Virus record (IMG/VR): IMGVR_UViG_3300042970_000016
DNA: 64,000 bases
Source: a virus
Reading direction: 5' to 3' (one strand)
Below, one piece after another: positions 29,168 to 45,711 of the stretch (position 1 is the first letter of the stretch; each line of letters begins with the position of its first letter). A program made the position numbers and the translations under genes. Under the pieces are notes generated by a model. It was not told the origin of the DNA. It ran no database searches and saw only the letters and a program-made list of their open reading frames with translations.

Positions 29168-29413
29168 ATGCACATTTCATATAAGAAGTTGTGGAAACTG
29201 TTGATCGACAGAGATATGAACAAGCAAGATCTCAGGAAGCTTTGTGGCTTGAGCTCTGCTTCAATTGCAAAGCTGGGCAAGGGCGAGAATATCACAACGG
29301 ATGTTTTGGTCAGGATTTGTGAGGGACTACATTGCGAGCTCGAGGACATCATGGAGCTCGAAGAAGATGAGATCAAAGCAACAGATACGCAATCAACTGT
29401 AGATGAGGGATGA
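29168..29413 (+). CDS. Cro/C1-type HTH regulator
   Basis: ISYKKLWKLLIDRDMNKQDL...IAKLGKGENITTDVLVRIC. Confidence 0.9.
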   Translation: MHISYKKLWKLLIDRDMNKQDLRKLCGLSSASIAKLGKGENITTDVLVRICEGLHCELEDIMELEEDEIKATDTQSTVDEG

Positions 29414-29422
29414 CAATAAGAC

Positions 29423-32400
29423 ATGAGTAAATTGGAAGACATCACTGCAGGATGTACAGTGAAAGGCATTATAGGCGATGAACCAGTTACGGTCGTTGCC
29501 GAGCAGTGGTATGGGAATAATGTCAAAGAAATCACATACAAAGATTCGAAAGGCGTGCCTGGAACGCAATTACTGCTCCGTGAAAATGAAGCAACATTGG
29601 AAGTGCTGTCTGGACATCTTCCGTGGAGTTTTGATGCAGATCCAAATCAGATGAAACTGGCATCTGAGGCTTACAGGATCAGTCTTGCACACCTCTTTGA
29701 TCCCTATCTTGCTGTGCACACATCTTCAATCGAGCCGCTGCCGCATCAGATCTCTGCAGTTTATCAGGAGATGCTGCCAAGAGTGCCACTGCGGTATGTT
29801 CTTGCAGATGACCCAGGAGCCGGCAAGACGATTATGACGGGCCTGTATATCAAGGAACTGATTGCACGAGGAGATCTGAAGCGTTGCCTCATTGTTTCTC
29901 CAGGCAGCCTTGTAGAGCAGTGGCAGGATGAGCTGTACTCGAAGTTTAATCTGAAATTTGAGATTCTCACCAATGATCGCATGGAGTCTGCTGTCAGCGG
30001 CAATATCTTCAATGAGGTCGATCATTGCATCTGCAGGATGGATAAGCTCGCCAGAAGTGATGATCTGCAGAACAAACTGAAGGTGACGGAATGGGATCTT
30101 ATAGTGGTCGATGAGGCACACAAGATGTCGGCTACGGTCTGGGGCGGAGAAGTCAAATATACCCGGAGATTTCAGTTGGGAAGACTGCTTTCCAATATCA
30201 CGCGCAATTATCTCCTGCTGACCGCGACACCTCACAATGGCAAGGAAGAAGATTTTGAGCTGTTCCTTTCTCTGGTGGATCCGGATCGATTTGAGGGCGT
30301 ACACCATTCCTCACACAAGTCTGTCGATGTCAGCGATGTGATGAGACGACTGGTTAAGGAAGAACTTCTGAAATTTGACGGTACTCCTCTGTTTCCGGAG
30401 CGCCGTGCCCACACAGTCAATTATGATCTGTCACCGATGGAATCGAAGCTCTATCAAGCCGTAACAGAATATGTGCGTGAGGAGTTTAACCGGGCGGATA
30501 AACTGAACAATGATCGCAAGGCGACCGTTGGTTTTGCTTTGACGATCCTGCAGCGAAGGCTTGCATCATCTCCAGAAGCAATCTACCAGTCTCTGAGACG
30601 AAGGCGTGAACGTTTGGAACACAGACTTGCCGAAGAGAAACTTGGCAAGAGGGCCAGCGAATACAAAGATCCCGACTGGGACGAAGATATGGACGAGGAC
30701 GATCTGTCCGCCGATGAGCAGGAACAGGTCGAAGATCGGGTTGTAGATCATGCTTCCGCTGCTGCGACGATTGCTGAACTCGAAGCAGAGATCAAGACAT
30801 TAAAGAAACTCGAGAAGATGGCAAATGATGTCCGCGTCAGTGGCGTCGATCGTAAGTGGGACGAGCTCTCGAAACTGCTTCAGGATAATTCCTTCATGTA
30901 TGGCAAGGATGGTCAAAGGGAGAAACTTATCATCTTTACAGAGCAGAAGGATACGCTGAACTATCTGGCAGAAAAGATCAGATCTCTTCTTGGCAACGAT
31001 GAAGCGGTGGTAACGATTCACGGCGGCATGATGCGTTCCGAGAGAAAGAAGGTCGAGGAGCTTTTCAAACAGGACAAGGCAGTCAGAATCCTGATTGCGA
31101 CAGATGCAGCAGGCGAAGGCATCAACCTGCAGAGAGCTCATTTGATGATCAACTATGACCTCCCGTGGAACCCGAATCGATTGGAACAACGCTTTGGCCG
31201 TATCCATAGAATCGGGCAGACCGAGGTCTGCCATCTCTGGAACCTCGTGGCTAACGAGACACGGGAAGGATATGTGTATCAGAGGCTTCTTGCAAAGCTC
31301 GAGGAAGAGAGGCAGGCACTTGGAGGCAAGGTCTTCGATATCTTAGGGAAGCTCACATTTAATAACAAATCTCTTCGGGATCTGATGGTGGAAGCCATCC
31401 GCTATGGCAATGACCCGGCGGTTAGAGCAAAGCTGAATCAAGTCGTGGATAAGTCCATGGATCCAGAAGTTTTCCGTCGCATGATCAAGGAGAATGCGCT
31501 GACAAATGATGTGATGGACGTCCACACAGTCAATCTCATCAAGGAAGATATGGAGAGGATGGAAGCACATAAGCTTCAGCCTTACTTTATTGAATCGTTC
31601 TTCCTCGAGGCATTCCAGAACCTTGGCGGTCGCATTCAGAAGAGGGAAAAAGGTAGGTATGAGATCACTTCAGTACCTTATTCTGTTAGGAACCGAGATG
31701 CGCAGATTGGAACTGGAGAACCAGTATTGAAGAGATACGAGAGAGTCTGCTTTGATAAACAGTACTGCTTTTTGGCGGGAAAACCGCAGGCTGATCTGCT
31801 TTGCCCTGGGCATCCTCTCCTGGAAGCTGTCATTGATATCGTAAAGGAGAAGAACATCGATGTCATGAAACGCGGCGCGGTCTTTGTAGATGACAACGAT
31901 TACAGCACTGATGCAAGACTGCTGTTTTACATCGAGGATGCTATCCAGGATGGGATCACTAATAAAGATGGTTCCCGCAGGATCATTTCGAAGAATATCC
32001 ACTTCGTAGAGCTCAGGGAAGACGGTACTGCTTCCAATGCAGGCTATGCACCGTATCTGGATTACAGAGCTGTGGATGAGGAAGAATATGCAGCAGTTCA
32101 AGAATGGATGGGGACGCAGAAATGGCTTAGTCAAGGAGTGGAAAATCAAGCAAAACAGTATGCGATCGAGAACCTGATACCACGACATTTCGCGGAAGTA
32201 AAAAAGCAGAAAGATGAACGGCTTAACAAGACAGAGAAAGCTGTGAAGGAAAGGTTAACAGCAGAGATCCAGTATTGGGATTTTCGTGCCGGAGAACTTG
32301 AAGAAAAAGAAAAAGCAGGTAAGGCGACCAATGCGAAGGTGAATTCAAAGCTTGCCAGGAGAAGAGCAGACGACTTGACCAGCAGATTAGTAAGTAGGCA

Positions 32401-32935
32401 GGCGGAAATTGAAAAAGAGCGGAAAATTTCTCCGCTGCCTCCTGTCATTACTGGCGGGGCGCTTGTTATTCCGAAGGGACTGTTGCATCAGTTGCTGCAC
32501 AAGCCGATGCCAGATACCTTCGGCGGCGAAGACAAGCAGAGCATGGAATATGCTGCGATGAATGCAGTAATGCATATTGAATCTGAGATGGGATTTAAAC
32601 CAACGGATGTAAGTGCGGAAAAGTGTGGATACGATGTCGAGTCCTATATTCCGGAAGGCATGAGAAAAAGGGCAACTGCATATGCACTCAGATTCATTGA
32701 AGTAAAAGGAAGAAAGAAAGGCGCAACATCAGTGACGGTCAGCAGAAATGAAGTATTGACAGCGCTGAACCGTCCGGAAGAATTCATACTGGCGATTGTT
32801 GAAGTAGATGGAGATAAGACGCACACCATCTATTTGAAACATCCGTTTAAAAACGCATTGGATAACACTGCTGCAAGCTGCAATTATGAAATTCAAGATT
32901 TGATAAAGGAATCGGAAGTCCTGTATCAGAAGTGA
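29423..32935 (+). CDS. SNF2 helicase with C-terminal DUF3883 (PD-(D/E)xK) nuclease domain
   Basis: LADDPGAGKT, VVDEAHK, LTATPH, QRFGRIHRIGQ; C-terminal GYDVES...FIEVKG. Confidence 0.92.
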   Translation: MSKLEDITAGCTVKGIIGDEPVTVVAEQWYGNNVKEITYKDSKGVPGTQLLLRENEATLEVLSGHLPWSFDADPNQMKLASEAYRISLAHLFDPYLAVHTSSIEPLPHQISAVYQEMLPRVPLRYVLADDPGAGKTIMTGLYIKELIARGDLKRCLIVSPGSLVEQWQDELYSKFNLKFEILTNDRMESAVSGNIFNEVDHCICRMDKLARSDDLQNKLKVTEWDLIVVDEAHKMSATVWGGEVKYTRRFQLGRLLSNITRNYLLLTATPHNGKEEDFELFLSLVDPDRFEGVHHSSHKSVDVSDVMRRLVKEELLKFDGTPLFPERRAHTVNYDLSPMESKLYQAVTEYVREEFNRADKLNNDRKATVGFALTILQRRLASSPEAIYQSLRRRRERLEHRLAEEKLGKRASEYKDPDWDEDMDEDDLSADEQEQVEDRVVDHASAAATIAELEAEIKTLKKLEKMANDVRVSGVDRKWDELSKLLQDNSFMYGKDGQREKLIIFTEQKDTLNYLAEKIRSLLGNDEAVVTIHGGMMRSERKKVEELFKQDKAVRILIATDAAGEGINLQRAHLMINYDLPWNPNRLEQRFGRIHRIGQTEVCHLWNLVANETREGYVYQRLLAKLEEERQALGGKVFDILGKLTFNNKSLRDLMVEAIRYGNDPAVRAKLNQVVDKSMDPEVFRRMIKENALTNDVMDVHTVNLIKEDMERMEAHKLQPYFIESFFLEAFQNLGGRIQKREKGRYEITSVPYSVRNRDAQIGTGEPVLKRYERVCFDKQYCFLAGKPQADLLCPGHPLLEAVIDIVKEKNIDVMKRGAVFVDDNDYSTDARLLFYIEDAIQDGITNKDGSRRIISKNIHFVELREDGTASNAGYAPYLDYRAVDEEEYAAVQEWMGTQKWLSQGVENQAKQYAIENLIPRHFAEVKKQKDERLNKTEKAVKERLTAEIQYWDFRAGELEEKEKAGKATNAKVNSKLARRRADDLTSRLVSRQAEIEKERKISPLPPVITGGALVIPKGLLHQLLHKPMPDTFGGEDKQSMEYAAMNAVMHIESEMGFKPTDVSAEKCGYDVESYIPEGMRKRATAYALRFIEVKGRKKGATSVTVSRNEVLTALNRPEEFILAIVEVDGDKTHTIYLKHPFKNALDNTAASCNYEIQDLIKESEVLYQK

Positions 32936-32942
32936 GGGAGAT

Positions 32943-35738
32943 ATGGCTGTCAAGAAACTGATAGAGGTGGCACTGCCACTGGATAAAATTAATGAAGCCT
33001 CTGCTAGGGAAAAATCAATTCGCCACGGGCATCCGTCAACACTTCATCTCTGGTGGGCTAGACGACCTCTTGCAGCTGCTCGTGCGGTGATATTTGCATC
33101 TATTATTGATGACCCTTCTTCACATCCTGAAAAATTTCCTACTGAAGTGGAGCAGGCGAGAGAAAGAGATAGACTATTTTCTATCATTAATGAACTTGTG
33201 TTATGGGAGAATACGTCAAATGACGAAATGCTGGATAAGGCAAGAAAAGAGATATTAAAAGCGACCAATAATAATCCGCCTGCATTGTTAGATCCATTTG
33301 CAGGCGGAGGTACTATTCCAATGGAGGCTCAGAGGTTAGGACTTGCAGCATATGCCCACGATCTAAATCCAGTTGCTGTAATGATCAATAAAGCGTCCAT
33401 TGAGATTCCGCCCAAGTTTAATAATTTAAAACCCGTAAATCCAGAATCTAATCGCATGCATTTATCTAACAATGGGTGGCATGGCTTATCAGGAATGATA
33501 GATGATGTCATTTATTACGGAAAATGGATCAAAGAAAAAGCCTTTAGTGAAATTGGATATATGTATCCTCAAATTAAAGTGCCAGAGGGACAGGGAGGTG
33601 GAAAGACTAATGCTGTTGCATGGATTTGGACAAGAACAGTAAAATGCCCTAATCCTGCATGTGGATGTGAAATGCCTTTAGCAAATAGTTTTATATTATC
33701 GAAAAAGAAGGGAAATGAGGCGTATGTCGACCCTGTTTTTGATTATAGTAGCAAAAAAATAAGTTATAAAGTTAGAATGGGAGGATCAAAGCCAAAGATT
33801 GAGCCGAAACTTGGTAGAGGGGCAAATTTTAGATGCATAATGTGTGGTGAAACTGCTACACCAGATTATATTAAAAATGAAGCTTCATCCGGAAGAATGG
33901 GATCTGTTCTTATTGGAGTAATAGGCGAAGGAAAAAAGGGCAGGGTTTTTGTGACTCCTGACGAAGAGCAAATATCAGCTGCGAATGTTGCAAAGCCAGA
34001 TCAATTTCCGACTGGAAAGTTGAGTGATGATCGAAGAGCTCTTTGGACTCCTATTTACGGATTAGATACATTTGACAAATTGTTTTCTAATCGGCAATTA
34101 ACCACTATGACAGTTTTGAGCCGACTAGTGAGCGATGTAATACCGGTAATAGAAAAAGATGCTATTGCTGCAGGAATGAGGGACGATCATATATCCCTTA
34201 ATAAAGGAGGAACTGGCGCTAAGGCATATAGTGAGGCAATAGCGGTGTATCTTTCGTTCGCTGTGGATAGAGAAGCTAATTACTGCTCGACGCAAAATGG
34301 TTGGAGTGGGGATTTCATCATTCAAGTTTTCGGAAGACAAGGAATTCCTATGGTCTGGGACTATGCAGAAAGTAATCCCTTTTCAAACTCCACAGGTAAT
34401 TTTGAAGGGGCAATAAAATGGGTTGCTGATGCAATGACTTCATTACCAGCTAATATCCCGGGGGTGGCAGAACAACATGACGCTCAGACCGATTGCGGTT
34501 TAAGAAATGTTATTGTTTCTACTGATCCACCTTATTATGACAATATTGGATATGCAGATTTATCTGATTATTTTTATATATGGATGAGATGCTCGTTAAA
34601 AGCGATTTATCCACAATTGTTTTCGACGATGTTGGTTCCAAAGGCGGAAGAACTGGTAGCCGTTCCTTATAGGTTCAATGGAAATAGTGAAGCTGCAAAG
34701 GAATTCTTTGAAGATGGGATGTTGGCTACATGCAAACAAATTTATAATTATGCAGATGAAAGTTATCCAATAACTATTTACTATGCTTACAAGCAAAATA
34801 ACAGTAAAGAAAATGGTGCTGAATCAAAGAAAACTTCTGATGGTTGGGAGACCATGCTAACTTCAATCATCAAAGCGAATCTAATGATTACAGGTACATG
34901 GCCTATTCATACCGAAAGGGAGACCGGACTGAAAGCACATGTAAATGCATTAGCATCTTCTATTGTACTAGTTTGCCGTAAACGGCCTGAAAAAGCACCC
35001 GTAACAACGCGACGTAATCTGATTACTGAGCTTCGAAAAGAACTCCGCCCCGAATTAAAAAGGCTTCAGGATAGTAATATTGCTCCTGTCGACCTTGCGC
35101 AGGCTGCCATTGGACCTGGTATGAGCGTATTCAGCAAGTATAGTCAAGTCTTAGAGGCAGATGGTACACCGATGACAGTTCGCAGTGCGCAGCAGATTAT
35201 CAATGAAGAGGTTGATGCATATTTCAACGAACGTGTCGGCAACATGGACTCTGAGAGTCGTTTCTGTGTGGATCTCTATACGCAATTCGCATATAACGAT
35301 GTCAAATATGGCGAGGCCGAGGTACTTGCAAATGCGAAGGGTGTTTCCATTGCCACCATGGCCTCCCATGGAGCCCTATACGCGAAAGCCGGCATTGTTC
35401 ATCTGGTAGAACGCAAAGATCTTCCTACAAATGTCAGCAACACAGAATCCAACGTTTGGCTTCTAACTCAGCAGTTAACGTACACTATGGAGAAGACAGG
35501 TATAGATGGTTGTGCAAAGATAGTTGCTTCGATGTTTGGAGGAAATGCTGAAAATGCAAAGGATATGGCTTATCGGCTTTATACCATTGCAGAGAAGAAG
35601 AAGTGGACCAATGAGGCCTATGCTTATAATGCTTTAGTTGTTGCTTGGCCTGACATTCAGATGAAGGCTGCTGATATACAGAAAGAAACACCACAGCAGA
35701 TGAGCATATTCGACTACATGGATTCTAATGACCAGTAA
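32943..35738 (+). CDS. DUF1156 adenine DNA methyltransferase (931 aa)
   Basis: GHPSTLHLWWARRPL, DPFAGGG motif I, TDPPYYDN catalytic motif, Zn ribbons. Confidence 0.92.
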   Translation: MAVKKLIEVALPLDKINEASAREKSIRHGHPSTLHLWWARRPLAAARAVIFASIIDDPSSHPEKFPTEVEQARERDRLFSIINELVLWENTSNDEMLDKARKEILKATNNNPPALLDPFAGGGTIPMEAQRLGLAAYAHDLNPVAVMINKASIEIPPKFNNLKPVNPESNRMHLSNNGWHGLSGMIDDVIYYGKWIKEKAFSEIGYMYPQIKVPEGQGGGKTNAVAWIWTRTVKCPNPACGCEMPLANSFILSKKKGNEAYVDPVFDYSSKKISYKVRMGGSKPKIEPKLGRGANFRCIMCGETATPDYIKNEASSGRMGSVLIGVIGEGKKGRVFVTPDEEQISAANVAKPDQFPTGKLSDDRRALWTPIYGLDTFDKLFSNRQLTTMTVLSRLVSDVIPVIEKDAIAAGMRDDHISLNKGGTGAKAYSEAIAVYLSFAVDREANYCSTQNGWSGDFIIQVFGRQGIPMVWDYAESNPFSNSTGNFEGAIKWVADAMTSLPANIPGVAEQHDAQTDCGLRNVIVSTDPPYYDNIGYADLSDYFYIWMRCSLKAIYPQLFSTMLVPKAEELVAVPYRFNGNSEAAKEFFEDGMLATCKQIYNYADESYPITIYYAYKQNNSKENGAESKKTSDGWETMLTSIIKANLMITGTWPIHTERETGLKAHVNALASSIVLVCRKRPEKAPVTTRRNLITELRKELRPELKRLQDSNIAPVDLAQAAIGPGMSVFSKYSQVLEADGTPMTVRSAQQIINEEVDAYFNERVGNMDSESRFCVDLYTQFAYNDVKYGEAEVLANAKGVSIATMASHGALYAKAGIVHLVERKDLPTNVSNTESNVWLLTQQLTYTMEKTGIDGCAKIVASMFGGNAENAKDMAYRLYTIAEKKKWTNEAYAYNALVVAWPDIQMKAADIQKETPQQMSIFDYMDSNDQ

Positions 35739-35768
35739 GCTGCTTGAAAGGAGAAGCATAACCGATTA

Positions 35769-37904
35769 ATGAAAAAAACAATAGAGACGATGCTTCCCCT
35801 GAGCAAAGTCAATGAACTTACAGTCAGTGAAAAAGTAAGGAAAGGGCATCCTGGGAAACTTCATCCATGGTGGAATCGAGGACCGATTGATTCTTCTATC
35901 GAGATTCTGAAGGCTTTAATAACGGCTGATAATAACGCTAGCTCTGATTCATCAGAACGTCTAGGTAGCAATTTTATTATCAGCGATCCATTTTCCGGTT
36001 TTGGCGGGTTTGCACTGGCTTCTCAGAGATTGGGACTTCAATGTAAGGCCAGTGATCTGAATTCTGTAGCGGTGCTTCTATCGAAGGCAGTGACAGAAAT
36101 TCCAGCAAGATTTACTGGAAATCATCCTGTCAGTCCGAAGGCTGAGAGTAAATTGTATTTCAAAACTGAGGGACTTGCAGAGGATGTTCTTTGTTATGGA
36201 GAAGACTTAAAAGGGAAGGCACAGGAGAAGCTTTCTACAGCATATCCGGATGAAGAATCAAATGCATTTGCATGGGTGTGGGTGCGCACGATTAAGTGCC
36301 CCAATCCTGCATGTGGGTGTGATATACCTGCAGGTACGAGCTTCATCTTATCGAAGACCAAAGGTCATGAATACTGGGCGGAACCGGTGGTAGATGGAAA
36401 GAAGGTTTATTTTAGGGTCCACCAAGGTATCTGCCCAGAAGAGAAAGAAACAAATCGATTCGGGAAAGCAGGAGCTAAGTTTCGCTGCCCGGTCTGCGGG
36501 CAGATCACGCGGGAAGCAGAGGTAAAAAAAGAGGGGAAGCTTGGTCTACAGTTGATGGCCGTCTGCCTTTCAACGAAGGAAGGAAAGATATTTGTTGAGC
36601 CCGACGAAGTGCAGATCAAGGCTGCAGATACGGTAGCAGTTGATGGTGTGCCGATCGGTTCTCTGCCGAAGAATTCCAGATGGTTCAGCCCGAGGCTCTA
36701 CGGCATGACAGAATACACGGATCTGTACACGCCAAGGCAGATGCTACTCATGACAACACTATGTGATCTAGTGGATGCTGAGATTGCTGAAGCAACTAAT
36801 GATGCACTTCAGGCAGGTATGGCGGACGATGGGATTCCGCTTCAGGACGGCGGAACCGGAGCACTCGCATATGGCCAAGCTGTCGGTGTGTATCTTTCTC
36901 TGGCCATCAGTGGGCATGCAGACTTTCAGTCTTCTCTTTGTTCTTGGGATAACAGGCATGGGAATATCAGGGCGGCATTTATGATGCAGGCTCTTCCCAT
37001 GACCTGGGTATTTGGAGAGACAAATCCATTCGCATCAGCAACTGGCAACATCAGTTCTCAGATCAGGAATGCAGCAGAAGTTCTGTCTCATATGGATCCG
37101 GTTGCGGGTACAGAGGTTACACAAGAGAATGCCATGACAGCATCCTATCCGGACCACGCTGTCATGTTTACGGAGCTACCGTATTATGACAATGTAGGAT
37201 ATGCGGACCTTTCGGATTACTTCTACATTTGGTTGAGACGATGTTTGAAGAATGTTTATCCTATGCTGTTTGATAAAGTGGTCACTTCTAAGGAGGAGCT
37301 CTGCTCGATCCCGGAGCACTACGGTGGAGATCAGGCGAAAGCTATTGCAGGATATCGGAAAGGGTTGGAGGAACTGTTCCGTAACTTCTATCGACAATGT
37401 AACAGTGATGATCCTTCTTTGGTTTTCTTCCTGTTCGGTGAAGAAGATAAAGCGAAAATTGCAATGGATCACGAAGAGAGTATGTCTGCATTTGAGCATT
37501 TGATCTTCAGTATTACACAGGCAAGATTTGCAGTAACAGCTATATGGCCGCTGCGGGCAGAGCTATTGGAGAATGCAAAGACACCGGTTCGTGTGGCAGT
37601 GGTTTTCCGCAGACAATATGGCAAGGAAGGAACGACCAAGCGCGGATTGATCAATTCCCTGAAACGGGAAATGCCTGCGGAAATGGACAAACTCACTGCT
37701 GCAGGAATTGCCAAAGAGGATCTGATGATTGCAGGCCTTGGCAAGGGGATGCAGATCTTCTCGAAATACAGTCAGGTAATCAATGCAGATGGATCAAAGC
37801 CGGAGATACACGATGTACTTCAGCTCATTCACCACGAGGTCATGGAATATATCAGCCTGCACGAAACAGAGCAGGTGAGGGAGGACAGCAATGAAGAATG
37901 TTGA
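35769..37904 (+). CDS. Second DUF1156 paralogue with altered catalytic motif (711 aa)
   Basis: GHPGKLHPWWNRGP, DPFSGFG, TELPYYDNVGYADLSDYFYIW; collinear with the upstream paralogue. Confidence 0.85.
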   Translation: MKKTIETMLPLSKVNELTVSEKVRKGHPGKLHPWWNRGPIDSSIEILKALITADNNASSDSSERLGSNFIISDPFSGFGGFALASQRLGLQCKASDLNSVAVLLSKAVTEIPARFTGNHPVSPKAESKLYFKTEGLAEDVLCYGEDLKGKAQEKLSTAYPDEESNAFAWVWVRTIKCPNPACGCDIPAGTSFILSKTKGHEYWAEPVVDGKKVYFRVHQGICPEEKETNRFGKAGAKFRCPVCGQITREAEVKKEGKLGLQLMAVCLSTKEGKIFVEPDEVQIKAADTVAVDGVPIGSLPKNSRWFSPRLYGMTEYTDLYTPRQMLLMTTLCDLVDAEIAEATNDALQAGMADDGIPLQDGGTGALAYGQAVGVYLSLAISGHADFQSSLCSWDNRHGNIRAAFMMQALPMTWVFGETNPFASATGNISSQIRNAAEVLSHMDPVAGTEVTQENAMTASYPDHAVMFTELPYYDNVGYADLSDYFYIWLRRCLKNVYPMLFDKVVTSKEELCSIPEHYGGDQAKAIAGYRKGLEELFRNFYRQCNSDDPSLVFFLFGEEDKAKIAMDHEESMSAFEHLIFSITQARFAVTAIWPLRAELLENAKTPVRVAVVFRRQYGKEGTTKRGLINSLKREMPAEMDKLTAAGIAKEDLMIAGLGKGMQIFSKYSQVINADGSKPEIHDVLQLIHHEVMEYISLHETEQVREDSNEEC

Positions 37905-40900
37905 TCTTATTCAGAAGGGGTTTCAGATTCTACTTCCGAAACTGGAGAATTATATCTGTCAGGAAATGAGGGGACAGTATGGCGACGAGTGGTGGGAAGA
38001 GGCACGCAGCTCGCTGAGTGATCAGTATGGTCTGCCCGATGATGGCACGGACGAAAAACTTATGTCAAGCCTTGATGTGGCGAACTGTCTGCGGCTGATT
38101 GACCGCCAGTGGAGGAGTGTATTCAGCCTTAAGATGACCAAGAGCCACAGAAACTGGGCTTCGGAACTGATGGAGGCTAGAAACAGGGTATCGCATATCG
38201 GAAGCGAAGACCTTGATCAGCAGTACACAGAGCGCACACTTGATACCATGGCGCTTCTGTGTGAATCCATCGATGCGGAAGCAACGAGCCAGATCCGCAC
38301 CATGTACCGGCAATTGCGGTATGACTCTGTACAGGAAGCAGCTGTAGACAAGAAGAAGGTAAAGGCGGCTGTGCTCACTTCAAAAGTGGGGCAGAGCCTC
38401 CCAAGCTGGCGGGACGTGATCAAGCCGCATACCGATGTCGCAGAGGGAAGATACAAGGCGGCAGAGTTCGCCGCTGACCTGGCACAGGTTGCCCGTGGAG
38501 AAGGAGCATATGAATACCGCGATCCTGTTGAATTCTTCCATCGCACCTATGTGACGGAAGGTATGTCCGGATTGCTGCTGGAGGCATTGCGCCGTGTGAC
38601 CGGACAAGGAGGAGAGCCGGTTATTCAGCTGAAGACTGCCTTCGGTGGGGGCAAGACGCACAGCATGCTGGCTCTTTACCATATGCTCCATGGCAATGCG
38701 ACAATCGATGAAATTCCAGATCTGAAGCCGATTCTGGAAAGGACAGGTCTTCAGGAGTTGCCGAAGGTTAATATTGCGGTCCTTGTTGGAACCGCAATGG
38801 ATCCGACGAAGAAGAAGAATCCTGCTAATTTCCCGGGATATACGGTCAGCACGATCTGGGGGGAAATGGCGTATCAGCTTGTTACGGCAGCTGGTAAGCC
38901 TGATCTGTATGCCAAATATATCAGGGATTCTGACCGTAAGGGGGTCTCGCCGGGATCAGAGAATCTCAAAAACTTCTTCAACGAATGTGGTCCGTGCCTT
39001 GTACTCATGGACGAGCTTGTCGCCTATGCAAGGAAACTGTATGGAAAGACGGATCTTCCTGCCGGTACCTATGAGAACTTCATTACGTTTGTTCAGGAGA
39101 TCACCGAAGCCGCAAGGGCCAGCGAGAACAGCCTGGTTGTAGCTTCTATCCCGGAATCCGACATTGAGATTGGTGGAGAGGCCGGCAGAGGCGTTCTTGA
39201 GACCATCGAGCATACCTTTGGCCGTATGGAATCCATCTGGAAGCCGGTTGCAGCCAATGAGGGATTTGAGGTTGTACGCAGACGTCTCTTCGAAGACTGT
39301 AAGGACGTGGTGGCCAGAGATGAGGTCTGTGAAGCTTTCAGTGCCATGTATCAGGAAAACGAAGAAGATTTCTCGATTGAAGCGAAGGAAGTGGACTACA
39401 AGCAGAAGCTGATCTCCTGCTATCCGATCCATCCGGAAGTTTTCGAGAGACTGTATGGTGACTGGGCGACACTGGAACATTTCCAGAGAACCAGAGGCGT
39501 ACTGCGACTGATGGCTGCAGTCATTCATGAGCTGTGGATGGCAGATGATGAGAGCGCCATGATTATGCCGGGGTCGCTTCCACTCGATATGCCAAACGTA
39601 CGCGATGAGCTGGTCCGTTATCTTCCTGATACATGGAACAGTATCATCGACCGTGAAGTTGACGGTAAGGATTCAATACCCTATCAGAAAGACCAAGCTA
39701 ATATCCGGTACGGCCAGCATCTTTCCTGTAGAAGAGTTGCACGCACGATTATGCTTGGCAGTGCGCCCAGTACATCAGCTCTCCGAGATCAGGGCCTGCG
39801 TGGTCTTGAGATTTCCAGAATCATGCTGGGAACCGTTCAGCCGGGTGAGAGCGTCGCCAACTTCAAGGACGCATTAAATACATTACATGGCTCCCTGTCC
39901 TATCTCTACAACAGCAGCAATGGTGCAAGGTACTGGTATGACACCAAGCCGACACTCCGGAAAACTGCGGAGGACCGCGCCACGCAGTTCTCGCAGGCCG
40001 ATGTAGAGATGGAGATTGAGAGCAGATTGAAGAAGATCCGCAGAGAGGCTCCTTTCTCAGGTGTGCATATCTGCCCTGCTACGTCAAATGATGTTCCGGA
40101 TGATCAGGCGGCAAGGCTTGTTATTTTGCGGCCTTGTGATTTCTATATCCGTAGAAAAGATGACTGTGCGGCCATGACAGCGGCAAAAGACATCCTCGAT
40201 AACAGAGGAACGTCACCGCGTCTCTACCGGAATATGCTTGCTTTCATGGCAGCAGATGGGGATAAGCTTGGAGCTCTTGAGCAGGAAGTGAAGCGCTTTA
40301 AGGCGTGGTCTTCTATTCTGTCTGATAAGGACGAGCTGAATCTAGACGGAAACCAGGTAAGGGAGACAGAGAGTAATCTGAATCGTAGCAACACCACGGT
40401 AGAAGCTCGCTTAAAGGAGGCTTATTGCTGGCTTCTCGTTCCCAGTATCGACAGGGATGAGGATGTAAAGAAGATCATTTGGGACATCAACGATGTCGGC
40501 GGTGGAACAGACAGCATTGTCAGTAAAGCTGCTAGAAAGATGGAACAGTCCGACCAGATCATCACAAGATGGGCACCTGTCATGTTGCAGATGGAGCTGG
40601 ATCAGTTGCTTTGGAAGGATTCTGATCACATCCAGGTTAATCAGCTCTGGAACTACCTTTGCACGTACTGCTATCTCTCCAAACTCGCGAGCAAATCCGT
40701 ATTGGAGGAGACGATTTCACAGGGAGTAGCATCTGATCAGTATTTTGCAATTGCGGCAGCATATGACAGCGACAATCATCGGTACAGAGATCTGAAATAT
40801 GGTCAGACTGTCTTTGCAATTAACCCCACCGATCTTCTGGTAAAGATGGATGTTGCAAAAAAGCAGAAAGAGGAAGAGAGAAAAGCTGCTGAGGAAGAGG

Positions 40901-41307
40901 AACGTCGCAGACGCGAGGCACAGGGCGGCAATAATGGTGGTTCTGGCACATCGCAAGGCTTTAATAATGGAAGCGGCATCACAAGTGGAGGAACACCGTT
41001 AGAAGGAAATTATACTGGCTATGGTAATGGAAAAAATGGCGGTGGCAGTACCACTGAAGTGCATGAAAAGGCCCAAAATACGCATTTCTATATGTCTGTA
41101 AAGCTGGATAATACTCGAATCAATCGCGACGTGAATACTTACGTGCAAGAGATACTTCAGCATCTGATGAATGTGGATGATGCAAATGTCGATATCAGAT
41201 TGGAAGTGCAGGTGGACGCATCGAAAGGAATTCCTTCTTCAACCATCAGAACTGTTTCGGAAAACTGCAAGACATTAAAGGTCGATGACTTTGGATTTAA
41301 CGATTAA
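37891..41307 (+). CDS. Swt1-like HEPN + DUF499 AAA+ ATPase (1138 aa)
   Basis: N-terminal ARNRVSH (Rx4H); LPSWRDVIKPH.DV, FAADL, TAFGGGKTHS Walker A, LMDELV Walker B. Confidence 0.9.
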   Translation: MKNVDLIQKGFQILLPKLENYICQEMRGQYGDEWWEEARSSLSDQYGLPDDGTDEKLMSSLDVANCLRLIDRQWRSVFSLKMTKSHRNWASELMEARNRVSHIGSEDLDQQYTERTLDTMALLCESIDAEATSQIRTMYRQLRYDSVQEAAVDKKKVKAAVLTSKVGQSLPSWRDVIKPHTDVAEGRYKAAEFAADLAQVARGEGAYEYRDPVEFFHRTYVTEGMSGLLLEALRRVTGQGGEPVIQLKTAFGGGKTHSMLALYHMLHGNATIDEIPDLKPILERTGLQELPKVNIAVLVGTAMDPTKKKNPANFPGYTVSTIWGEMAYQLVTAAGKPDLYAKYIRDSDRKGVSPGSENLKNFFNECGPCLVLMDELVAYARKLYGKTDLPAGTYENFITFVQEITEAARASENSLVVASIPESDIEIGGEAGRGVLETIEHTFGRMESIWKPVAANEGFEVVRRRLFEDCKDVVARDEVCEAFSAMYQENEEDFSIEAKEVDYKQKLISCYPIHPEVFERLYGDWATLEHFQRTRGVLRLMAAVIHELWMADDESAMIMPGSLPLDMPNVRDELVRYLPDTWNSIIDREVDGKDSIPYQKDQANIRYGQHLSCRRVARTIMLGSAPSTSALRDQGLRGLEISRIMLGTVQPGESVANFKDALNTLHGSLSYLYNSSNGARYWYDTKPTLRKTAEDRATQFSQADVEMEIESRLKKIRREAPFSGVHICPATSNDVPDDQAARLVILRPCDFYIRRKDDCAAMTAAKDILDNRGTSPRLYRNMLAFMAADGDKLGALEQEVKRFKAWSSILSDKDELNLDGNQVRETESNLNRSNTTVEARLKEAYCWLLVPSIDRDEDVKKIIWDINDVGGGTDSIVSKAARKMEQSDQIITRWAPVMLQMELDQLLWKDSDHIQVNQLWNYLCTYCYLSKLASKSVLEETISQGVASDQYFAIAAAYDSDNHRYRDLKYGQTVFAINPTDLLVKMDVAKKQKEEERKAAEEEERRRREAQGGNNGGSGTSQGFNNGSGITSGGTPLEGNYTGYGNGKNGGGSTTEVHEKAQNTHFYMSVKLDNTRINRDVNTYVQEILQHLMNVDDANVDIRLEVQVDASKGIPSSTIRTVSENCKTLKVDDFGFND

Positions 41308-41340
41308 AGTTGTTGCCGCCTTATAGTAGGGGAAGAATAA

Positions 41341-43005
41341 ATGCCAGAGCGAATTTCAGAGCGACATTCTTTGAACGACACGTATATCCAGAGAATATTT
41401 CAAATTTCTGGTCTCCTTAAGATAGATCATAACAAGTATGGGACTGCGAAATATAACGCAAGCCTTATATATAATTGGCTGCGGGGTAAGTTTCAGAGTC
41501 TTCGACTGCCAGATAAAATGCGAACCGTTTCACGTGATAGAGCAGGTCAATCTGTTGACGTAATCTATGACTACCAAAAGCAGTATTTCTGCATGCTTGC
41601 ACAGCATCCAGATCAAGAAGTCCCTGGAAGAATGTGGTCCATAGAGGCCGAAATCATCGTACAAGATGAGAATGTTCGAATGGGAGCTAAGTTATCATAT
41701 TCAACACCTGTGGGATCGCAAGCATCGACGCCGAATTTTAGTATACCGAGATTTGTACGTGATATTGCTTATAAAAACGGAATATTTGATGGCTGGAGAC
41801 TTGAAAGGCAAGCAACCTATATTCAATCATCTGATGATTTGCAACGTATGATTGAATTATTAACAATGCGAGACAGACTTTGCCCAGTTATCGTAATTGC
41901 AGAGTGTGAAGAGAACGCACAAAATCCGTTTAAGTCAGGGTATCTTGTTGATCCGGATAAGCTGGCCAATAGTGTTTATTTAACCGCACATGTTATTGCC
42001 TTACCCGTGAAGTTCCAGGATGAATTTAGAAACGAAGTGGGAGAAAATTTAAAAGTATATGACGGTGCCGTACGGACATATTATCCCAACCTGAGTTTAG
42101 AAGATGATGACTATAAACGCCATCCGTTTTCAGCGCCGTCTGCTATTCTTGCAGCCAGTTATAGTGACGATGATGGAACAGATCATATAATGGGCGAAGC
42201 ATATCAATTTATGCTGGCCGATCGAATTCAGCAGTACAATAGTATGGCGAGAATTAAATGGTCTGAACTTGGACATAAATTTTATTATCAGGCGAATCGG
42301 GAACTACTGAAGGAAAGAATATCAAGCGCCGGAGATATTGATAAATTAAAGGAAGAGATCGCAAATCAGGAAAAACAATATGAAACTGAAATAAAATCTG
42401 CTGAAGATGCTGCTTATTCTGCAATGGAAGATACGGAAAAATATAAGGATCAGTTGGCAGAGGCAAGGGATACCATCCACCGATTGAACACAAGACTTGA
42501 GACTCTTCAGTATCAGCTGGAGAAATCTCAAGGGCAAGGCGCTATTGAAATACCAATTCCTGATACGTATGAAGAATTGCCTAAATGGGTTGACACATAT
42601 TTTCCTGGACGAATGGTGTTAAATTCAAGGGCATATAGATCACTTAAGGACGCGGAGTTCGAAGATGTTCATCTTGTATATCAGTCATTGAAATTGCTAG
42701 GAGATGAATATTGCAGAATGAGAGCCGGAACATTAACTCGAAATCAATTTGATGAAAAATGCCAAGAGTTAGGAGTTACGGAAAGCGGGTGCATTGCAGA
42801 TAGTAGAGCAGGAGAATTGGGAGATATTTACTTTATTCCTGACTACCATGGTCGTAGAGTCAAGATAGATCGGCATATAAAAAATGGAAGCGCTGCAACG
42901 AGAGACCCCAAGCGATGTATGAGGATTTACTTTTTCTGGGATGATGATATGCAGCAAGTAGTGATTTGCTATCTTCCGCAGCATCAGCAAATTAGGACTA
43001 GCTAA
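41341..43005 (+). CDS. Uncharacterised 554 aa protein, coiled coil plus possible RelE-like C-terminal domain
   Basis: Long AT-rich ORF with RBS; ends HIKNG...RDPKRCMRIYFFWDDDMQQVVICYLPQH. Confidence 0.7.
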   Translation: MPERISERHSLNDTYIQRIFQISGLLKIDHNKYGTAKYNASLIYNWLRGKFQSLRLPDKMRTVSRDRAGQSVDVIYDYQKQYFCMLAQHPDQEVPGRMWSIEAEIIVQDENVRMGAKLSYSTPVGSQASTPNFSIPRFVRDIAYKNGIFDGWRLERQATYIQSSDDLQRMIELLTMRDRLCPVIVIAECEENAQNPFKSGYLVDPDKLANSVYLTAHVIALPVKFQDEFRNEVGENLKVYDGAVRTYYPNLSLEDDDYKRHPFSAPSAILAASYSDDDGTDHIMGEAYQFMLADRIQQYNSMARIKWSELGHKFYYQANRELLKERISSAGDIDKLKEEIANQEKQYETEIKSAEDAAYSAMEDTEKYKDQLAEARDTIHRLNTRLETLQYQLEKSQGQGAIEIPIPDTYEELPKWVDTYFPGRMVLNSRAYRSLKDAEFEDVHLVYQSLKLLGDEYCRMRAGTLTRNQFDEKCQELGVTESGCIADSRAGELGDIYFIPDYHGRRVKIDRHIKNGSAATRDPKRCMRIYFFWDDDMQQVVICYLPQHQQIRTS

Positions 43006-43033
43006 TCGGAAAGATGAAGCATCAGGGAAAATT

Positions 43034-44014
43034 ATGGAAGATAATCAAGAAAAAGAGGCAGCACTTCAAGAGGCCGAAAGCAAGACGATATACGAACAGC
43101 AACGTCTAGATTATTATTTGAGTCTTCGATATGACTTCCAAGGTAGGAGTGTTAACCAATGGCTTCATAAGCTTTATGACGATGAGAGGTCAGTTTATAA
43201 ACCACTTAAAAGCCCATCATGGAACCAAGTTAGAAGGGAAGCGGGGATAAGCCTTTGGGAAAATATTGTGGCTAATTTTTCTACTTCAAAAAAGAAAGAA
43301 GTTGAAGACAAAAAGGAATTAACTCGCAGTCATCTTCAGGAGGAAATCGATAAAGAAAATGAACGCAGAAAAAATAAATGTGAAGAATCCGATGCCTTGC
43401 TAAGAGACAAAATTAGTAATATTTTTGGCCATATAAATTCCAATCACAGAAAAGAAGTTGAACAATATTTTTCATATGTTCTATATTCTGATAATTTAAT
43501 CTTCGATGGAACACAGTTTGATATAGATTTCCATCTGGCATATGATGAGAGCAAAAAATGTCTTGTTGCTGATTACAAATTGCCGATGATGAGTCAAATT
43601 CCACAGACTAAGAAATGGACTGTTAATAAAAATAATGAGATAAAAGAGCAATTAATGAATAAATCGGACTACATCTCTATGTATGAAAGAATAATATTTG
43701 ACGTATCACTTAGAGCTGTAGGTGTTCTTTTTGAATCTGATAGTAATAATTTACTTACAAGCATTGTATTCAATGGATCATGTGTGTTTAACGAATGGCA
43801 GAAAATGCCCACGATATTGCTGTCATTTGCCATTCAAAAAAACCAGTATTCTTATGACCGAGTCCGCAGAATGGATTTTGTGAGCAAAAGAGAAATAGCC
43901 AAACTGTCAGAAGTGGCTTATTTGGATGATATTCATTCTGATAAACCACCTGCAGATCTTTGGGAAACCCCTCCGAGTAAAATAGTTACACCGATTAGGT
44001 CGAGTCAATTTTGA
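43034..44014 (+). CDS. Uncharacterised 326 aa protein resembling the N-terminal part of long Mrr-family proteins
   Basis: LVADYKLP, LRAVGVLFESD, SIVFNG segments; no PD-(D/E)xK motif seen. Confidence 0.5.
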   Translation: MEDNQEKEAALQEAESKTIYEQQRLDYYLSLRYDFQGRSVNQWLHKLYDDERSVYKPLKSPSWNQVRREAGISLWENIVANFSTSKKKEVEDKKELTRSHLQEEIDKENERRKNKCEESDALLRDKISNIFGHINSNHRKEVEQYFSYVLYSDNLIFDGTQFDIDFHLAYDESKKCLVADYKLPMMSQIPQTKKWTVNKNNEIKEQLMNKSDYISMYERIIFDVSLRAVGVLFESDSNNLLTSIVFNGSCVFNEWQKMPTILLSFAIQKNQYSYDRVRRMDFVSKREIAKLSEVAYLDDIHSDKPPADLWETPPSKIVTPIRSSQF

Positions 44015-44264
44015 GCCTTATTAAGTGTCGTGCTAATTATGCCGCATGGCAATACAACTATCGCGGGCTGTGATTGCAAACATTTTAACGAAGCCAAACC
44101 TTTTAATGATTCAGAACTGAGCTCGAATTGAAGGGTGCAAAGCTGGTCGTATTGGGTTGCTCATAGTGCTCCTTGACGGAGTCTGAAGCCGCTGTAAGCC
44201 GGTGCCGGTGTGCGGGAAAAGTCCTATTTCAAGCTGTTTTGCACACTATTGCCTTGGTATCAAA

Positions 44265-44423
44265 GACGATCAGAAGATAGATATTCTTGGTAGGACCTAT
44301 GAATACTGTATTGCTCAGTTTGCAGCCAAGGAAGGCAAGGGTGGCGGAGAATTCTATACGCCTTCAAGTGTCTTGAATACGCTTGTTGCTGTACTTAAAC
44401 CGTATTCAAATTGCCGAGTGTAT
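44265..44423 (+). pseudogene. hsdM: Internal fragment of type I R-M methyltransferase
   Basis: DILGRTYEYCIAQFAAKEGKGGGEFYTPSSV...LKPYSNCRVY; homology stops just before the DPxCGSG motif; no 5' part. Confidence 0.88.
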
Positions 44424-44541
44424 GAAAACAAGACGCAAAATTGGATACAATTCAACGATTGCTCTCTCAGGGGTGTCGCTTGAGATTTAGGGGTGTCGGT
44501 TTTTACGTCATGGTTCATCGTTTGTGAGGAAGTAAAGAAAA

Positions 44542-45405: not shown

Positions 45406-45486
45406 AAACCTTGTGTTCATTGTAGAGCACGTAAAATGAATGCAGTGGGGTGACTTTGATATAGAGAATCTTATGGAGGACAAATT

Positions 45487-45711
45487 ATGGAAAAGAAGAA
45501 GAAAAACAAATCAAAAATCGTCGGGTATGTTGTGGGCAGTGTTGTATTATGTGCAGCAACGGCAATAGCAGTTCCGTTGGTATTGCCAAAGGTTTCTGGA
45601 AAAATTAATAAAACTATGACTAAAAAAAGAAATGCGGACCATGATGATGACGATTGGGGACCTGTAATCGAGAAGAAGAATACTGAAAAGGAAGATGCCG
45701 ATGAAAATTGA
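45487..45711 (+). CDS. Small single-pass membrane protein (74 aa)
   Basis: GGAGG RBS; one hydrophobic helix flanked by basic residues; overlaps GTPase start. Confidence 0.75.
   Translation: MEKKKKNKSKIVGYVVGSVVLCAATAIAVPLVLPKVSGKINKTMTKKRNADHDDDDWGPVIEKKNTEKEDADEN

What the first reader, a model, noticed from the sequence alone, without database searches (positions are those of the whole stretch)
29168..44014. Helicase-methylase-ATPase defence operon with a second, apparently catalytically dead DUF1156 subunit
Seen: a tightly coupled operon HTH, SNF2-DUF3883, DUF1156, DUF1156*, HEPN-DUF499, 554 aa, 326 aa. The paralogue is full-frame and strongly diverged. It keeps the SAM motif (DPFSGFG), both Zn ribbons and YYDN.[12 protein letters not shown], but DPPY has become ELPY, and it lacks an N-terminal helical insert and the C-terminal part. 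Known: DUF499/DUF1156/SNF2 restriction-like systems (Gao et al. 2020) have one methylase plus DUF3780; no DUF3780-sized gene is seen here. Inference: a heterodimeric active/inactive methylase or second specificity subunit that reads DNA without marking it, which would be an undescribed subtype.
Basis: partly seen in the sequence, partly recalled or inferred. Interest (0 to 1): 0.82.

Follow-up and report, generated by a model that had tools for sequence, protein, structure and literature searches.

The report
Two-methylase Hma defence operon, second copy altered
A known anti-phage gene cluster (Hma) here carries a second, shorter copy of its DNA-methylase gene with a changed catalytic motif; this copy is an old, conserved and selected gene family found next to a normal copy in every case examined, so it is an undescribed subtype whose extra subunit probably no longer writes the mark.

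Summary
Window 29168-44014 encodes HTH, HmaA (SNF2+NOV_C), HmaB (931 aa, DPPY), a 711-aa HmaB paralogue (ELPY), HEPN-HmaC, HEC-07 and a 326-aa protein.

The paralogue is not strain-specific:
- There are over 120 clusters at 44-55% identity, and ELPY is kept in 123 of 128.
- In all 17 contexts read it follows a ~920-aa DPPY HmaB and, wherever the DNA continued, precedes HmaC.
- It forms one clade with sister short copies (EPPY, TLPY, EVPY, DLPY).
- dN/dS is 0.16-0.19.
- The AlphaFold2 model is confident (pLDDT 94) and has a methyltransferase fold.
- SAM-binding motifs I and II are invariant.

The long copy carries a hypervariable, cassette-swapped DNA-recognition insert (TRD). The short copy does not. 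This argues against a "second specificity subunit".

Best reading (about 0.5): a constant, SAM-binding, probably non-methylating partner subunit. An active methylase with altered chemistry is not excluded (about 0.27).

None of the Hma papers I read describes the layout, and one survey excluded loci with duplicated hma genes. Earlier notes of this scan recorded other multi-HmaB loci on other DNA.

Verdict: new variant of a known kind.

The parts
29168..29413 (+). Small Cro/C1-type HTH regulator (81 aa from the ATG at 29168)
   Evidence: Pfam HTH_26, 5e-17. The ATG at 29168 lies after the stop of the upstream DUF2326 gene. A 64%-identical HTH precedes HmaA in L001.
29423..32935 (+). HmaA: SNF2 helicase with a C-terminal NOV_C/DUF3883 PD-(D/E)XK nuclease
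   Evidence: PADLOC HmaA 1666 bits, full length. Pfam SNF2-rel_dom, Helicase_C and NOV_C.
32943..35738 (+). HmaB1: canonical 931-aa DUF1156 N6-adenine methyltransferase. Motif I DPFAGGG; motif IV DPPY at residues 528-531 (nt 34524-34535)
   Evidence: PADLOC HmaB 1085 bits, translation. Its clade has the hypervariable recognition insert around residues 268-384.
35769..37904 (+). HmaB2: 711-aa short paralogue. Motif I DPFSGFG (residues 73-79, nt 35985-36005); motif IV ELPY (residues 469-472, nt 37173-37184). It lacks the last two C-terminal HTH-like units and part of the DUF1156 N-terminal helices.
   Evidence: PADLOC HmaB 517 bits, translation, 34% identity to HmaB1. ELPY is kept in 123/128 homologues. 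dN/dS 0.16-0.19. AF2 pLDDT 94. Best fold matches are Trm14/Trm11/TrmN, Z 17-18.
37891..41307 (+). HmaC: HEPN_Swt1 RNase domain fused to the DUF499 STAND/AAA+ ATPase. It overlaps HmaB2 by 14 nt.
   Evidence: PADLOC HmaC 1052 bits. Pfam HEPN_Swt1 3.5e-28 and DUF499 3.7e-32.
41341..43005 (+). HEC-07 homologue (AdoMetDC-like, thioredoxin-like and RelE-like RNase domains). An accessory defence candidate, not an Hma core gene.
   Evidence: PADLOC HEC-07 325 bits. Description in bioRxiv 10.1101/2024.01.29.577857.
43034..44014 (+). 326-aa protein of unknown family, probably a further accessory gene
   Evidence: No Pfam, PADLOC or NCBIfam hit. The Atlas model resembles Mrr_cat/NA-iREase1-bearing proteins, TM 0.77 by query. 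It was not seen downstream of HmaC in the other loci read.

Best explanation
The locus is an Hma (helicase-methylase-ATPase; 'Type-1 BREX-related') restriction-like defence operon of a conserved two-methylase subtype.

HmaB1 (931 aa, DPPY) is the working N6-adenine methyltransferase and carries the diversifying DNA-recognition insert. It marks self DNA and sets the specificity of the system.

HmaB2 (711 aa, ELPY) descends from one old duplication of HmaB. It has kept the methyltransferase fold, the Zn ribbon and the SAM-binding motifs. It has changed the catalytic tetrapeptide, lost the last two C-terminal HTH-like units, and does not diversify its recognition insert.

It most likely acts as a constant, SAM-binding but non-methylating (or barely methylating) structural or regulatory subunit that works with HmaB1, HmaC and HmaA. 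It is probably not a second writer or a second sequence reader.

Shown: the conservation, synteny, selection, fold and motif pattern, and the asymmetry of the recognition insert between the two copies.

Inferred: loss of catalysis, SAM binding, and physical association with the other Hma proteins.
For: Family assignment:
- PADLOC HmaA, HmaB and HmaC score 1666, 1085 and 1052 bits.

Recurrence:
- More than 120 clusters (at 90% identity) of 700-750-aa homologues at 44-55% identity.
- About 11 full-length clusters at 50% identity among 1.84 billion representatives.
- The identical protein occurs on 13 metagenome contigs.

Motifs:
- ELPY in 123/128 homologues, the rest being EIPY, EPPY or ELPF.
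- D73, F75, G77, G79, D96, N98, P471, Y472 and the four Zn cysteines are invariant in the clade.
- Only 7 positions are fixed differently between the short and long clades, and two of them are motif IV itself.

Synteny:
- In all 17 contexts the order is long DPPY HmaB, then 0-2 embedded genes, then the short HmaB. HmaC follows wherever the DNA continued.

Phylogeny:
- The short copies form one clade (SH-aLRT 100), and one clade with the sister short copies (96/99). The partners of the ELPY copies form one clade (99-100).

Selection:
- dN/dS is 0.16 and 0.19 for the two unsaturated pairs, against 0.05 for HmaA and 0.08-0.11 for HmaC.

Structure:
- pLDDT 94, pTM 0.93, with ELPY directly after strand beta-4.
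- Best fold matches are Trm14, Trm11 and TrmN, Z 17-18.

Specificity asymmetry:
- Across six loci the long copy's residues 268-384 are 36-43% identical, against about 70% elsewhere. The short copy's equivalent region is 42-58% identical, against about 45% elsewhere.
- L002 and L017 share 96-97% identical short copy and HmaC. Their long copy is 90-100% identical at both ends and 40-55% identical in the middle.

Presence in RNA libraries:
- Contigs at 99% or higher identity in metatranscriptome libraries of three studies cover the operon. One of them spans the HmaB1/HmaB2 junction.

Precedent:
- METTL14 (EPPL) is an inactive partner of METTL3 (DPPW) (PMC5023411).
Against: - Nothing here measures methylation, SAM binding or protein contacts.
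- The SAM motifs are as well conserved as in active copies. Well-known dead partners such as METTL14 have lost donor binding, so retained SAM motifs fit an active enzyme at least as well.
- A Pro-to-Leu change at the second position is compatible with catalysis in KsgA/DIMT1 (NLPY). The stacking Tyr is kept.
- E is invariant within the ELPY clade, which suggests it has a role.
- The recognition-insert comparison rests on six loci and one swapped pair.
- The RNA-library contigs do not prove transcription, because such libraries can contain DNA.
- The trees were built with the quick method, and the short clade sits on a long branch.
Confidence: 0.5

Rival explanations
1. HmaB2 is an active methyltransferase with non-canonical motif IV (E-L-P-Y). 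It writes a second mark: the opposite strand of an asymmetric site, a fixed second site, or a different atom or substrate. The operon would then be a two-writer system.
For: - Motifs I and II, and the P-Y of motif IV, are invariant.
- The fold is intact at pLDDT 94.
- Purifying selection is present.
- N-L-P-Y is catalytic in DIMT1/KsgA.
- Tandem pairs of intact DPPY HmaBs exist (L020; earlier scan notes). Multi-writer Hma loci are therefore real.
Against: - D is invariant at this position in all 55 long HmaBs aligned. It is E, T or D across the wider short clade, so the catalytic-position constraint looks relaxed or changed.
- I know of no amino-methyltransferase with E at this position that is active (own knowledge).
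- The recognition insert does not diversify as that of a specificity-bearing writer does.
- The short copy has lost two of the three C-terminal HTH-like units that all BR methyltransferases are said to carry (PMC12839542).
Confidence: 0.27
2. HmaB2 is a sensor or decoy. As a SAM-binding pseudo-methyltransferase it would report SAM depletion (phage SAM lyases) or capture phage anti-methylase or anti-restriction proteins, and pass the signal to the HEPN RNase or the helicase-nuclease. This is a special case of the non-catalytic reading.
For: - SAM motifs are kept while the catalytic motif is changed.
- HmaB2 is the fastest-evolving of the four core proteins: window versus L001 identities are 85, 67, 54 and 75% for HmaA, HmaB1, HmaB2 and HmaC.
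- Every tandem locus with a complete HmaC has the HEPN domain.
Against: - HEPN-HmaC is equally common in single-HmaB systems (1370 of 2446 taxa in PMC12839542; HmaC lengths). There is therefore no specific link.
- There is no direct evidence of any kind.
- dN/dS below 0.2 shows no sign of an arms race at the whole-gene level.
Confidence: 0.1
3. HmaB2 is a decaying duplicate without function.
For: - It evolves about twice as fast as HmaB1.
- It has lost terminal segments.
- Orphan degenerate copies exist elsewhere (P0236, P0253).
Against: - The frame is open in all 17 contexts.
- dN/dS is 0.16-0.19.
- About 90 positions are invariant across sequences that are 45-55% identical.
- Position and motif are conserved.
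- In L003 it is the long copy that is frameshifted, while the short copy is intact.
Confidence: 0.02

Closest known systems
Hma system (HmaA-HmaB-HmaC; Payne et al. 2021, PMC8565338), also called the Type-1 DUF499-centred BREX-related (BR) system (Rakesh & Krishnan 2026, PMC12839542)
   Same: All three core genes are present at full length, on one strand and in the canonical order. The helicase carries the NOV_C nuclease and HmaC carries HEPN, both common Type-1 features. HmaA of a Halomonas system defends against T4 (PMC11232893).
   Different: A second, short HmaB with changed motif IV sits between HmaB and HmaC. The published descriptions give one methyltransferase. [quoted passage not shown]
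RL system of Gao et al. 2020, also called the Type-2 BR system (DUF499, DUF1156, DUF3780, PLD-helicase)
   Same: Homologous DUF1156 methyltransferase and DUF499 ATPase.
   Different: There is no DUF3780 and no PLD/HKD helicase. NCBIfam 'antiphage' DUF1156 and DUF499 models score 125 and 189 bits against cut-offs of 1000 and 1200. PADLOC DUF1156_MTase scores 98 bits against 1085 for HmaB.
METTL3-METTL14 m6A writer (active DPPW subunit plus inactive EPPL paralogue; PMC5023411)
   Same: Paralogous methyltransferase pair in which one copy keeps D-P-P-aromatic and the other has E in the first position.
   Different: METTL14 has lost donor binding and the aromatic residue. HmaB2 keeps motifs I and II and the Tyr. 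No heterodimer is shown here. The families, substrates and kingdoms are unrelated.
Type III R-M Mod dimer (EcoP15I), in which one protomer reads the site and the other methylates
   Same: Idea of two methyltransferase protomers with divided labour inside a helicase-linked restriction complex.
   Different: In EcoP15I the protomers are identical. Here the variable recognition insert sits in the copy with the intact catalytic motif, so a 'reader = non-catalytic copy' division is not supported.
Other multi-HmaB Hma loci noted earlier in this scan (e1-2391722, e1-2307458, e1-2307459) and L020 here
   Same: More than one HmaB gene in one Hma locus. One earlier case has an altered motif (DPPN).
   Different: Those are described as full-length copies with different recognition modules, that is, extra specificities. 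The clade here is a distinct, short, monophyletic lineage with a constant insert and a fixed ELPY.

Membership tests
Hma / Type-1 BR system | SNF2 helicase with C-terminal NOV_C (PD-(D/E)XK) nuclease (HmaA) | tested here: met
   PADLOC HmaA 1666 bits over residues 1-1165. Pfam SNF2-rel_dom, Helicase_C and NOV_C.
Hma / Type-1 BR system | DUF1156 N6-adenine methyltransferase (HmaB) with motif I and DPPY | tested here: met
   PADLOC HmaB 1085 bits. DPFAGGG and DPPY are present in the translation.
Hma / Type-1 BR system | DUF499 ATPase (HmaC), often fused to HEPN | tested here: met
   PADLOC HmaC 1052 bits. Pfam HEPN_Swt1 and DUF499.
Hma / Type-1 BR system | Anti-phage activity | not testable with these tools
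   Only HmaA of a Halomonas system has been tested, against T4 (PMC11232893).
RL (Gao 2020) / Type-2 BR system | Stand-alone DUF3780 gene and PLD-type helicase | tested here: not met
   No such Pfam or PADLOC hits in 26-46 kb. The NCBIfam antiphage DUF1156 and DUF499 models score far below their cut-offs.
Type-3 BR system | Stand-alone PglZ plus inactive STAND, and a helicase without nuclease | tested here: not met
   No PglZ hit, and HmaA carries NOV_C. Definition from PMC12839542.
Active amino-methyltransferase (for HmaB2) | Motif I (D/E)xFxGxG and the motif II acidic residue for SAM | tested here: met
   DPFSGFG. D73, F75, G77, G79 and D96 are invariant in the clade.
Active amino-methyltransferase (for HmaB2) | Motif IV (D/N/S)-P-P-(Y/F/W/H) | tested here: not met
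   ELPY in 123/128. The sister short copies have EPPY, TLPY, EVPY and DLPY. The Pro-to-Leu change alone is tolerated in KsgA/DIMT1.
Active amino-methyltransferase (for HmaB2) | Methyl transfer to DNA | not testable with these tools
   Needs a methylome or an enzyme assay.
Pseudo-enzyme partner of the METTL14 kind (for HmaB2) | Degenerate catalytic motif in a conserved, selected paralogue that always accompanies an active copy | tested here: met
Pseudo-enzyme partner of the METTL14 kind (for HmaB2) | Physical complex with the active paralogue | not tested
   931 + 711 residues exceed the 1000-residue limit of complex prediction. No defensible domain cut was available.

The most novel reading that the evidence does not exclude
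HmaB2 defines a pseudo-methyltransferase subunit class in BREX-related immunity. It would be a SAM-binding, non-writing paralogue that is required to license or restrain the HmaB1/HmaC/HmaA machine. For example, it could couple SAM availability or the state of HmaB1 to nuclease or HEPN activation. That would be a bacterial counterpart of the METTL3/METTL14 arrangement. A short, motif-IV-degenerate copy of independent origin (L031, DLTF) would then hint at convergence.
Probability: 0.2. Interest if true: 0.8.

Novelty: new variant of a known kind. Interest (0 to 1): 0.58.

Why it matters
Hma / Type-1 BR is one of the most widespread restriction-like defence systems: it is reported in 26 phyla (PMC8565338) and, as Type-1 BR, in 2446 taxa (PMC12839542). 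Its mechanism is essentially unknown, and the role of HmaB has not been demonstrated.

This subtype offers a natural separation-of-function experiment. One paralogue carries the variable recognition insert and the canonical catalytic motif. The other keeps SAM motifs but has a fixed, altered catalytic motif and a constant insert. It could show what the methylase does in the complex besides writing the mark.

The work also points to a gap in the one survey whose methods I read. Its curation removed loci with duplicated core genes, so the variant was excluded there.

Tried and rejected
- **Decaying duplicate.** Rejected on dN/dS, the invariant positions and the conserved synteny.
- **Strain-unique.** Rejected.
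- **Second specificity subunit.** Disfavoured by the asymmetry of the recognition insert.
- **Membership in the RL/DUF3780 system.** Rejected.
- **Sequence search of solved structures.** No hit for the long copy; one marginal TGS1 match (E 0.0095) for the short-clade profile.
- **Foldseek against PDB.** No significant hit. VIA-align was needed to recover the Trm14/Trm11 fold.
- **Own-genome search.** Not possible, because no genome is held for this window.
- **IMG/VR viral contigs and the phage collection.** No ELPY-type copy found. The plasmid collection holds only long-type relatives at about 35% identity.
- **Complex prediction.** Not run. The two full chains exceed 1000 residues, and cutting the split Rossmann fold would have made the result meaningless.
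- **Origin of the duplication.** A tree test of whether the short clade arose inside the partner clade gave 'not shown, not rejected' (support 26).
- **Circularity of the window.** I tested whether the window is one circular phage by comparing the ORFs at the two window ends. They are unrelated, and the question is left open.
Full report
**1. Observation**

The + strand of 29168-44014 holds seven closely packed genes. The gaps between them are 9, 7, 30, -14, 33 and 28 nt.

Pfam, PADLOC and NCBIfam identify them as:
- a Cro/C1-type HTH (81 aa from the ATG at 29168)
- HmaA (PADLOC 1666 bits; SNF2-related, Helicase_C and NOV_C/DUF3883 domains)
- a 931-aa DUF1156 protein (HmaB, 1085 bits)
- a 711-aa protein that also matches HmaB (517 bits), but only the first half of the DUF1156 profile
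- HEPN_Swt1 fused to HmaC/DUF499 (1052 bits)
- a 554-aa HEC-07 homologue (325 bits)
- a 326-aa protein without family

The translations show DPFAGGG and DPPY in the long copy, and DPFSGFG and ELPY in the short one. The following block, YYDN(I/V)[12 protein letters not shown], is nearly identical in the two.

The two copies are 34% identical over 764 columns. The short copy lacks about 45 residues of N-terminal helices and the last ~165 residues.

**2. What the system is**

The scores place it in Hma (Payne et al. 2021, PMC8565338). Rakesh & Krishnan (2026, PMC12839542) renamed this the Type-1 DUF499-centred BREX-related system.

It is not the DUF3780/PLD-helicase system of Gao et al.:
- Neither of those genes is present.
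- The NCBIfam 'antiphage' DUF1156 and DUF499 models score an order of magnitude under their cut-offs.

The absence of DUF3780 is therefore expected and is not a peculiarity.

HEC-07 is one of the 'Hma-embedded candidate' defence genes (bioRxiv 10.1101/2024.01.29.577857). Here it lies after hmaC rather than between hma genes.

**3. The short paralogue is a conserved gene family**

A search of 5.8 billion proteins returned only 700-751-aa proteins at 44-55% identity among its 120 best hits, apart from the window's own cluster. An exhaustive HMMER scan of 1.84 billion representatives found about eleven full-length 50%-identity clusters of this type. These clusters stand clear of the long HmaBs in score, at 535 bits or more against 464 or less.

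In an alignment of 205 HmaB sequences the motif-IV column reads ELPY in 123 and DPPY in 77. Stragglers are EIPY, EPPY, ELPF and DLTF.

Within the clade about 90 positions are invariant. They include:
- D73, F75, G77 and G79 (motif I)
- D96 and N98 (motif II)
- E469, P471 and Y472 (motif IV)
- the four Zn cysteines

The identical protein occurs on 13 contigs from several metagenomes.

**4. Synteny**

The genome collection holds one genome per species. Seven loci there carry an ELPY copy: L001-L005, L017 and L064. All are from Bacillota (Lachnospiraceae, Acidaminococcaceae). The remaining loci of the 80 retrieved have a single DPPY HmaB, apart from two exceptional loci, L020 and L031 (see section 5 and the items noticed in passing).

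Ten further metagenomic contexts were read. In all 17 contexts the short gene follows a ~920-930-aa DPPY HmaB, either directly or after one or two embedded genes. Wherever the DNA continued, it precedes HEPN-HmaC.

Four of these contexts carry more distant short copies (745-773 aa) with EPPY, TLPY, EVPY or DLPY.

**5. Phylogeny**

- The ELPY copies form one clade (SH-aLRT 100).
- Together with the four sister short copies they again form one clade (96, or 99 with P0253).
- The long partners of the ELPY copies form one clade (99-100), nested among ordinary HmaBs.
- A single duplication in the ancestor of the partner clade is neither shown nor rejected.
- A short DLTF copy in a deltaproteobacterial MAG (L031) and an orphan copy (P0236) group with deltaproteobacterial long copies instead. 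These are independent degenerations.

Caveats: the quick tree method was used, and the short clade sits on a long branch.

**6. Selection and tempo**

For the two pairs with unsaturated dS, dN/dS of the short gene is 0.16 and 0.19. HmaA gives 0.05 and HmaC 0.08-0.11.

The short copy is the fastest-evolving core protein. Between the window and L001 the identities are 85% (HmaA), 67% (HmaB1), 54% (HmaB2) and 75% (HmaC). It is nevertheless clearly under purifying selection.

**7. Where the two paralogues differ**

Only seven aligned positions are fixed (85% or more) to different residues in the short and long clades. They are I125L, E128A, D528E, P529L, R577H, F589Y and C678F. Two of them are motif IV itself, and E128 sits just after motif I.

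The long clade has 100% D and 100% P at the first two motif-IV positions. The wider short clade has E, T or D, and L, V, I, F or P.

**8. Specificity**

Across six loci, residues 268-384 of the long copy are 36-43% identical, against about 70% elsewhere. This region is the Zn-ribbon/TRD insert after strand 2. In the short copy the equivalent segment is 42-58% identical, against about 45% elsewhere.

L002 and L017 are the clearest case. Their short copies and HmaC are 96-97% identical (dS 0.14). Their long copies are 90-100% identical at both ends and only 40-55% identical in the middle. This is a recognition-cassette swap. The short copy shows no such cassette.

The diversifying specificity therefore resides in the catalytically canonical copy. 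This argues against HmaB2 as a second sequence reader. It also argues against an EcoP15I-like split in which the non-catalytic protomer reads the site.

**9. Structure**

AlphaFold2 with a 99-sequence alignment gives pLDDT 94.1 and pTM 0.93. ELPY lies directly after strand 464-469.

Foldseek found nothing significant. VIA-align gave Trm14, Trm11 and TrmN at Z 17-18. This is the same fold family that the Halomonas study reported for HmaB. The fold is intact.

**10. Is it dead?**

This is unproven.

For inactivity:
- The otherwise invariant catalytic Asp is replaced.
- That position varies (E, T, D) across the wider short clade.
- METTL14 (EPPL) is an inactive partner of METTL3.

Against inactivity:
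- The SAM motifs are fully conserved, whereas METTL14 lost donor binding.
- The stacking Tyr is kept.
- DIMT1/KsgA use N-L-P-Y catalytically.

I therefore rate a non-methylating, SAM-binding constant subunit at about 0.5. An active writer with altered chemistry rates about 0.27. A sensor or decoy version rates about 0.1, and decay about 0.02.

**11. RNA libraries**

Contigs at 99% or higher identity from metatranscriptome libraries of three studies (bovine gut, mixed culture) lie across the operon, including the short gene. One 151-nt contig spans the HmaB1/HmaB2 junction. Such libraries can contain DNA, so this is presence and not proof of transcription.

**12. Novelty**

The main texts of the four Hma/BR papers I read do not describe two methylases or an altered-motif copy. 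The Hma-embedding survey explicitly kept only loci where each hma gene occurred once.

Earlier notes of this scan record other multi-HmaB loci on other DNA. These were full-length copies with different recognition modules, and one DPPN copy. I confirmed here only that tandem intact copies exist (L020).

The short ELPY lineage is a distinct, coherent subtype. I class it as a new variant of a known kind.

**13. Context**

The island (about 26-46 kb, GC 0.38-0.49 against 0.52-0.58 in the flanks) is flanked on both sides by phage genes:
- terminase, portal, ClpP-like protease, capsid and tape measure at 1-13 kb
- a ParB-methylase at 15170-16420
- primase, helicase and AAA_24 at 19-25 kb
- two large serine recombinases at 52-56 kb
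- tail endopeptidase at 61-63 kb

TerL is 86-87% identical to that of gut Acutalibacteraceae/Oscillospiraceae phages. Those phages lack any HmaB. The operon thus appears to be cargo of, or inserted beside, a temperate phage of an Oscillospirales host. I could not settle whether this is one element or two.

Noticed in passing
L002:375-3185 versus L017:5658-8441: Two Lachnospiraceae MAG operons share 96-97% identical short HmaB and HmaC (dS 0.14). Their long HmaB is 90-100% identical at both ends and only 40-55% identical in the middle (dS 1.2 overall). This looks like a recognition-domain cassette exchange inside the active methylase.
   Followed up: partly
L031:2449-4782 (deltaproteobacterial MAG): An independently derived short HmaB (777 aa, motif IV DLTF, long branch) sits between HmaA and HmaC, with a DPPY HmaB further downstream. 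It groups with deltaproteobacterial long copies and not with the ELPY clade. This may be convergent evolution of a degenerate short copy.
   Followed up: partly
L020:2-5241: Two DPPY HmaB genes stand in tandem before HmaC. One is 930 aa and full length; the other is cut by the contig end. This is a two-writer layout, different from the window's.
   Followed up: no
L003:5642-8423 (Acidaminococcus massiliensis): The long DPPY HmaB is split into 622-aa and 349-aa ORFs by a frameshift, while the short ELPY copy and HmaC are intact. It could be a sequencing error or a phase-off state.
   Followed up: no
window 26072-29148: A separate two-gene candidate defence pair lies upstream. The first gene has an ABC-3C C-terminal domain 11 (PADLOC PDC-M68A). 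The second is a DUF2326/LmuB-like SMC-type ATPase (PDC-M68B, 62 bits). A DUF2326 homologue plus an HTH also precede HmaA in L001.
   Followed up: partly
window 43034-44014: The 326-aa protein has no sequence family. The Atlas model of it resembles proteins carrying Mrr_cat and NA-iREase1 domains (TM 0.77 by query).
   Followed up: partly
window 44202-46018: Gene remnants and a nuclease lie here: a 93-aa N6_Mtase fragment (44202-44483), an HNH protein resembling Type IV methyl-directed enzymes (44542-45405), and a 107-aa GTPase P-loop fragment (45695-46018). They look like debris of earlier defence genes at the island's edge.
   Followed up: no
window 1-25000 and 52389-64000: Phage genes flank the island on both sides: tape measure, capsid, ClpP-like protease, portal, TerL, ParB-N6/N4 methylase, primase/helicase, two large serine recombinases and tail endopeptidase. 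TerL is 86-87% identical to human-gut Acutalibacteraceae/Oscillospiraceae 'NatCom' phages of 47-58 kb, which have no HmaB. Whether this is one circularly permuted element or two prophages is unresolved.
   Followed up: partly
L094:5240-8573: In this MAG the HEPN domain (296 aa) and the DUF499 ATPase (809 aa) are separate adjacent genes rather than a fusion. An AAA_21 ATPase plus a 175-aa gene are embedded between the long and short HmaB.
   Followed up: no
window 35690-35840: A 151-nt contig from a bovine-gut metatranscriptome library spans the HmaB1 stop, the 30-nt spacer and the HmaB2 start. This is compatible with co-transcription but is not proof of it.
   Followed up: partly
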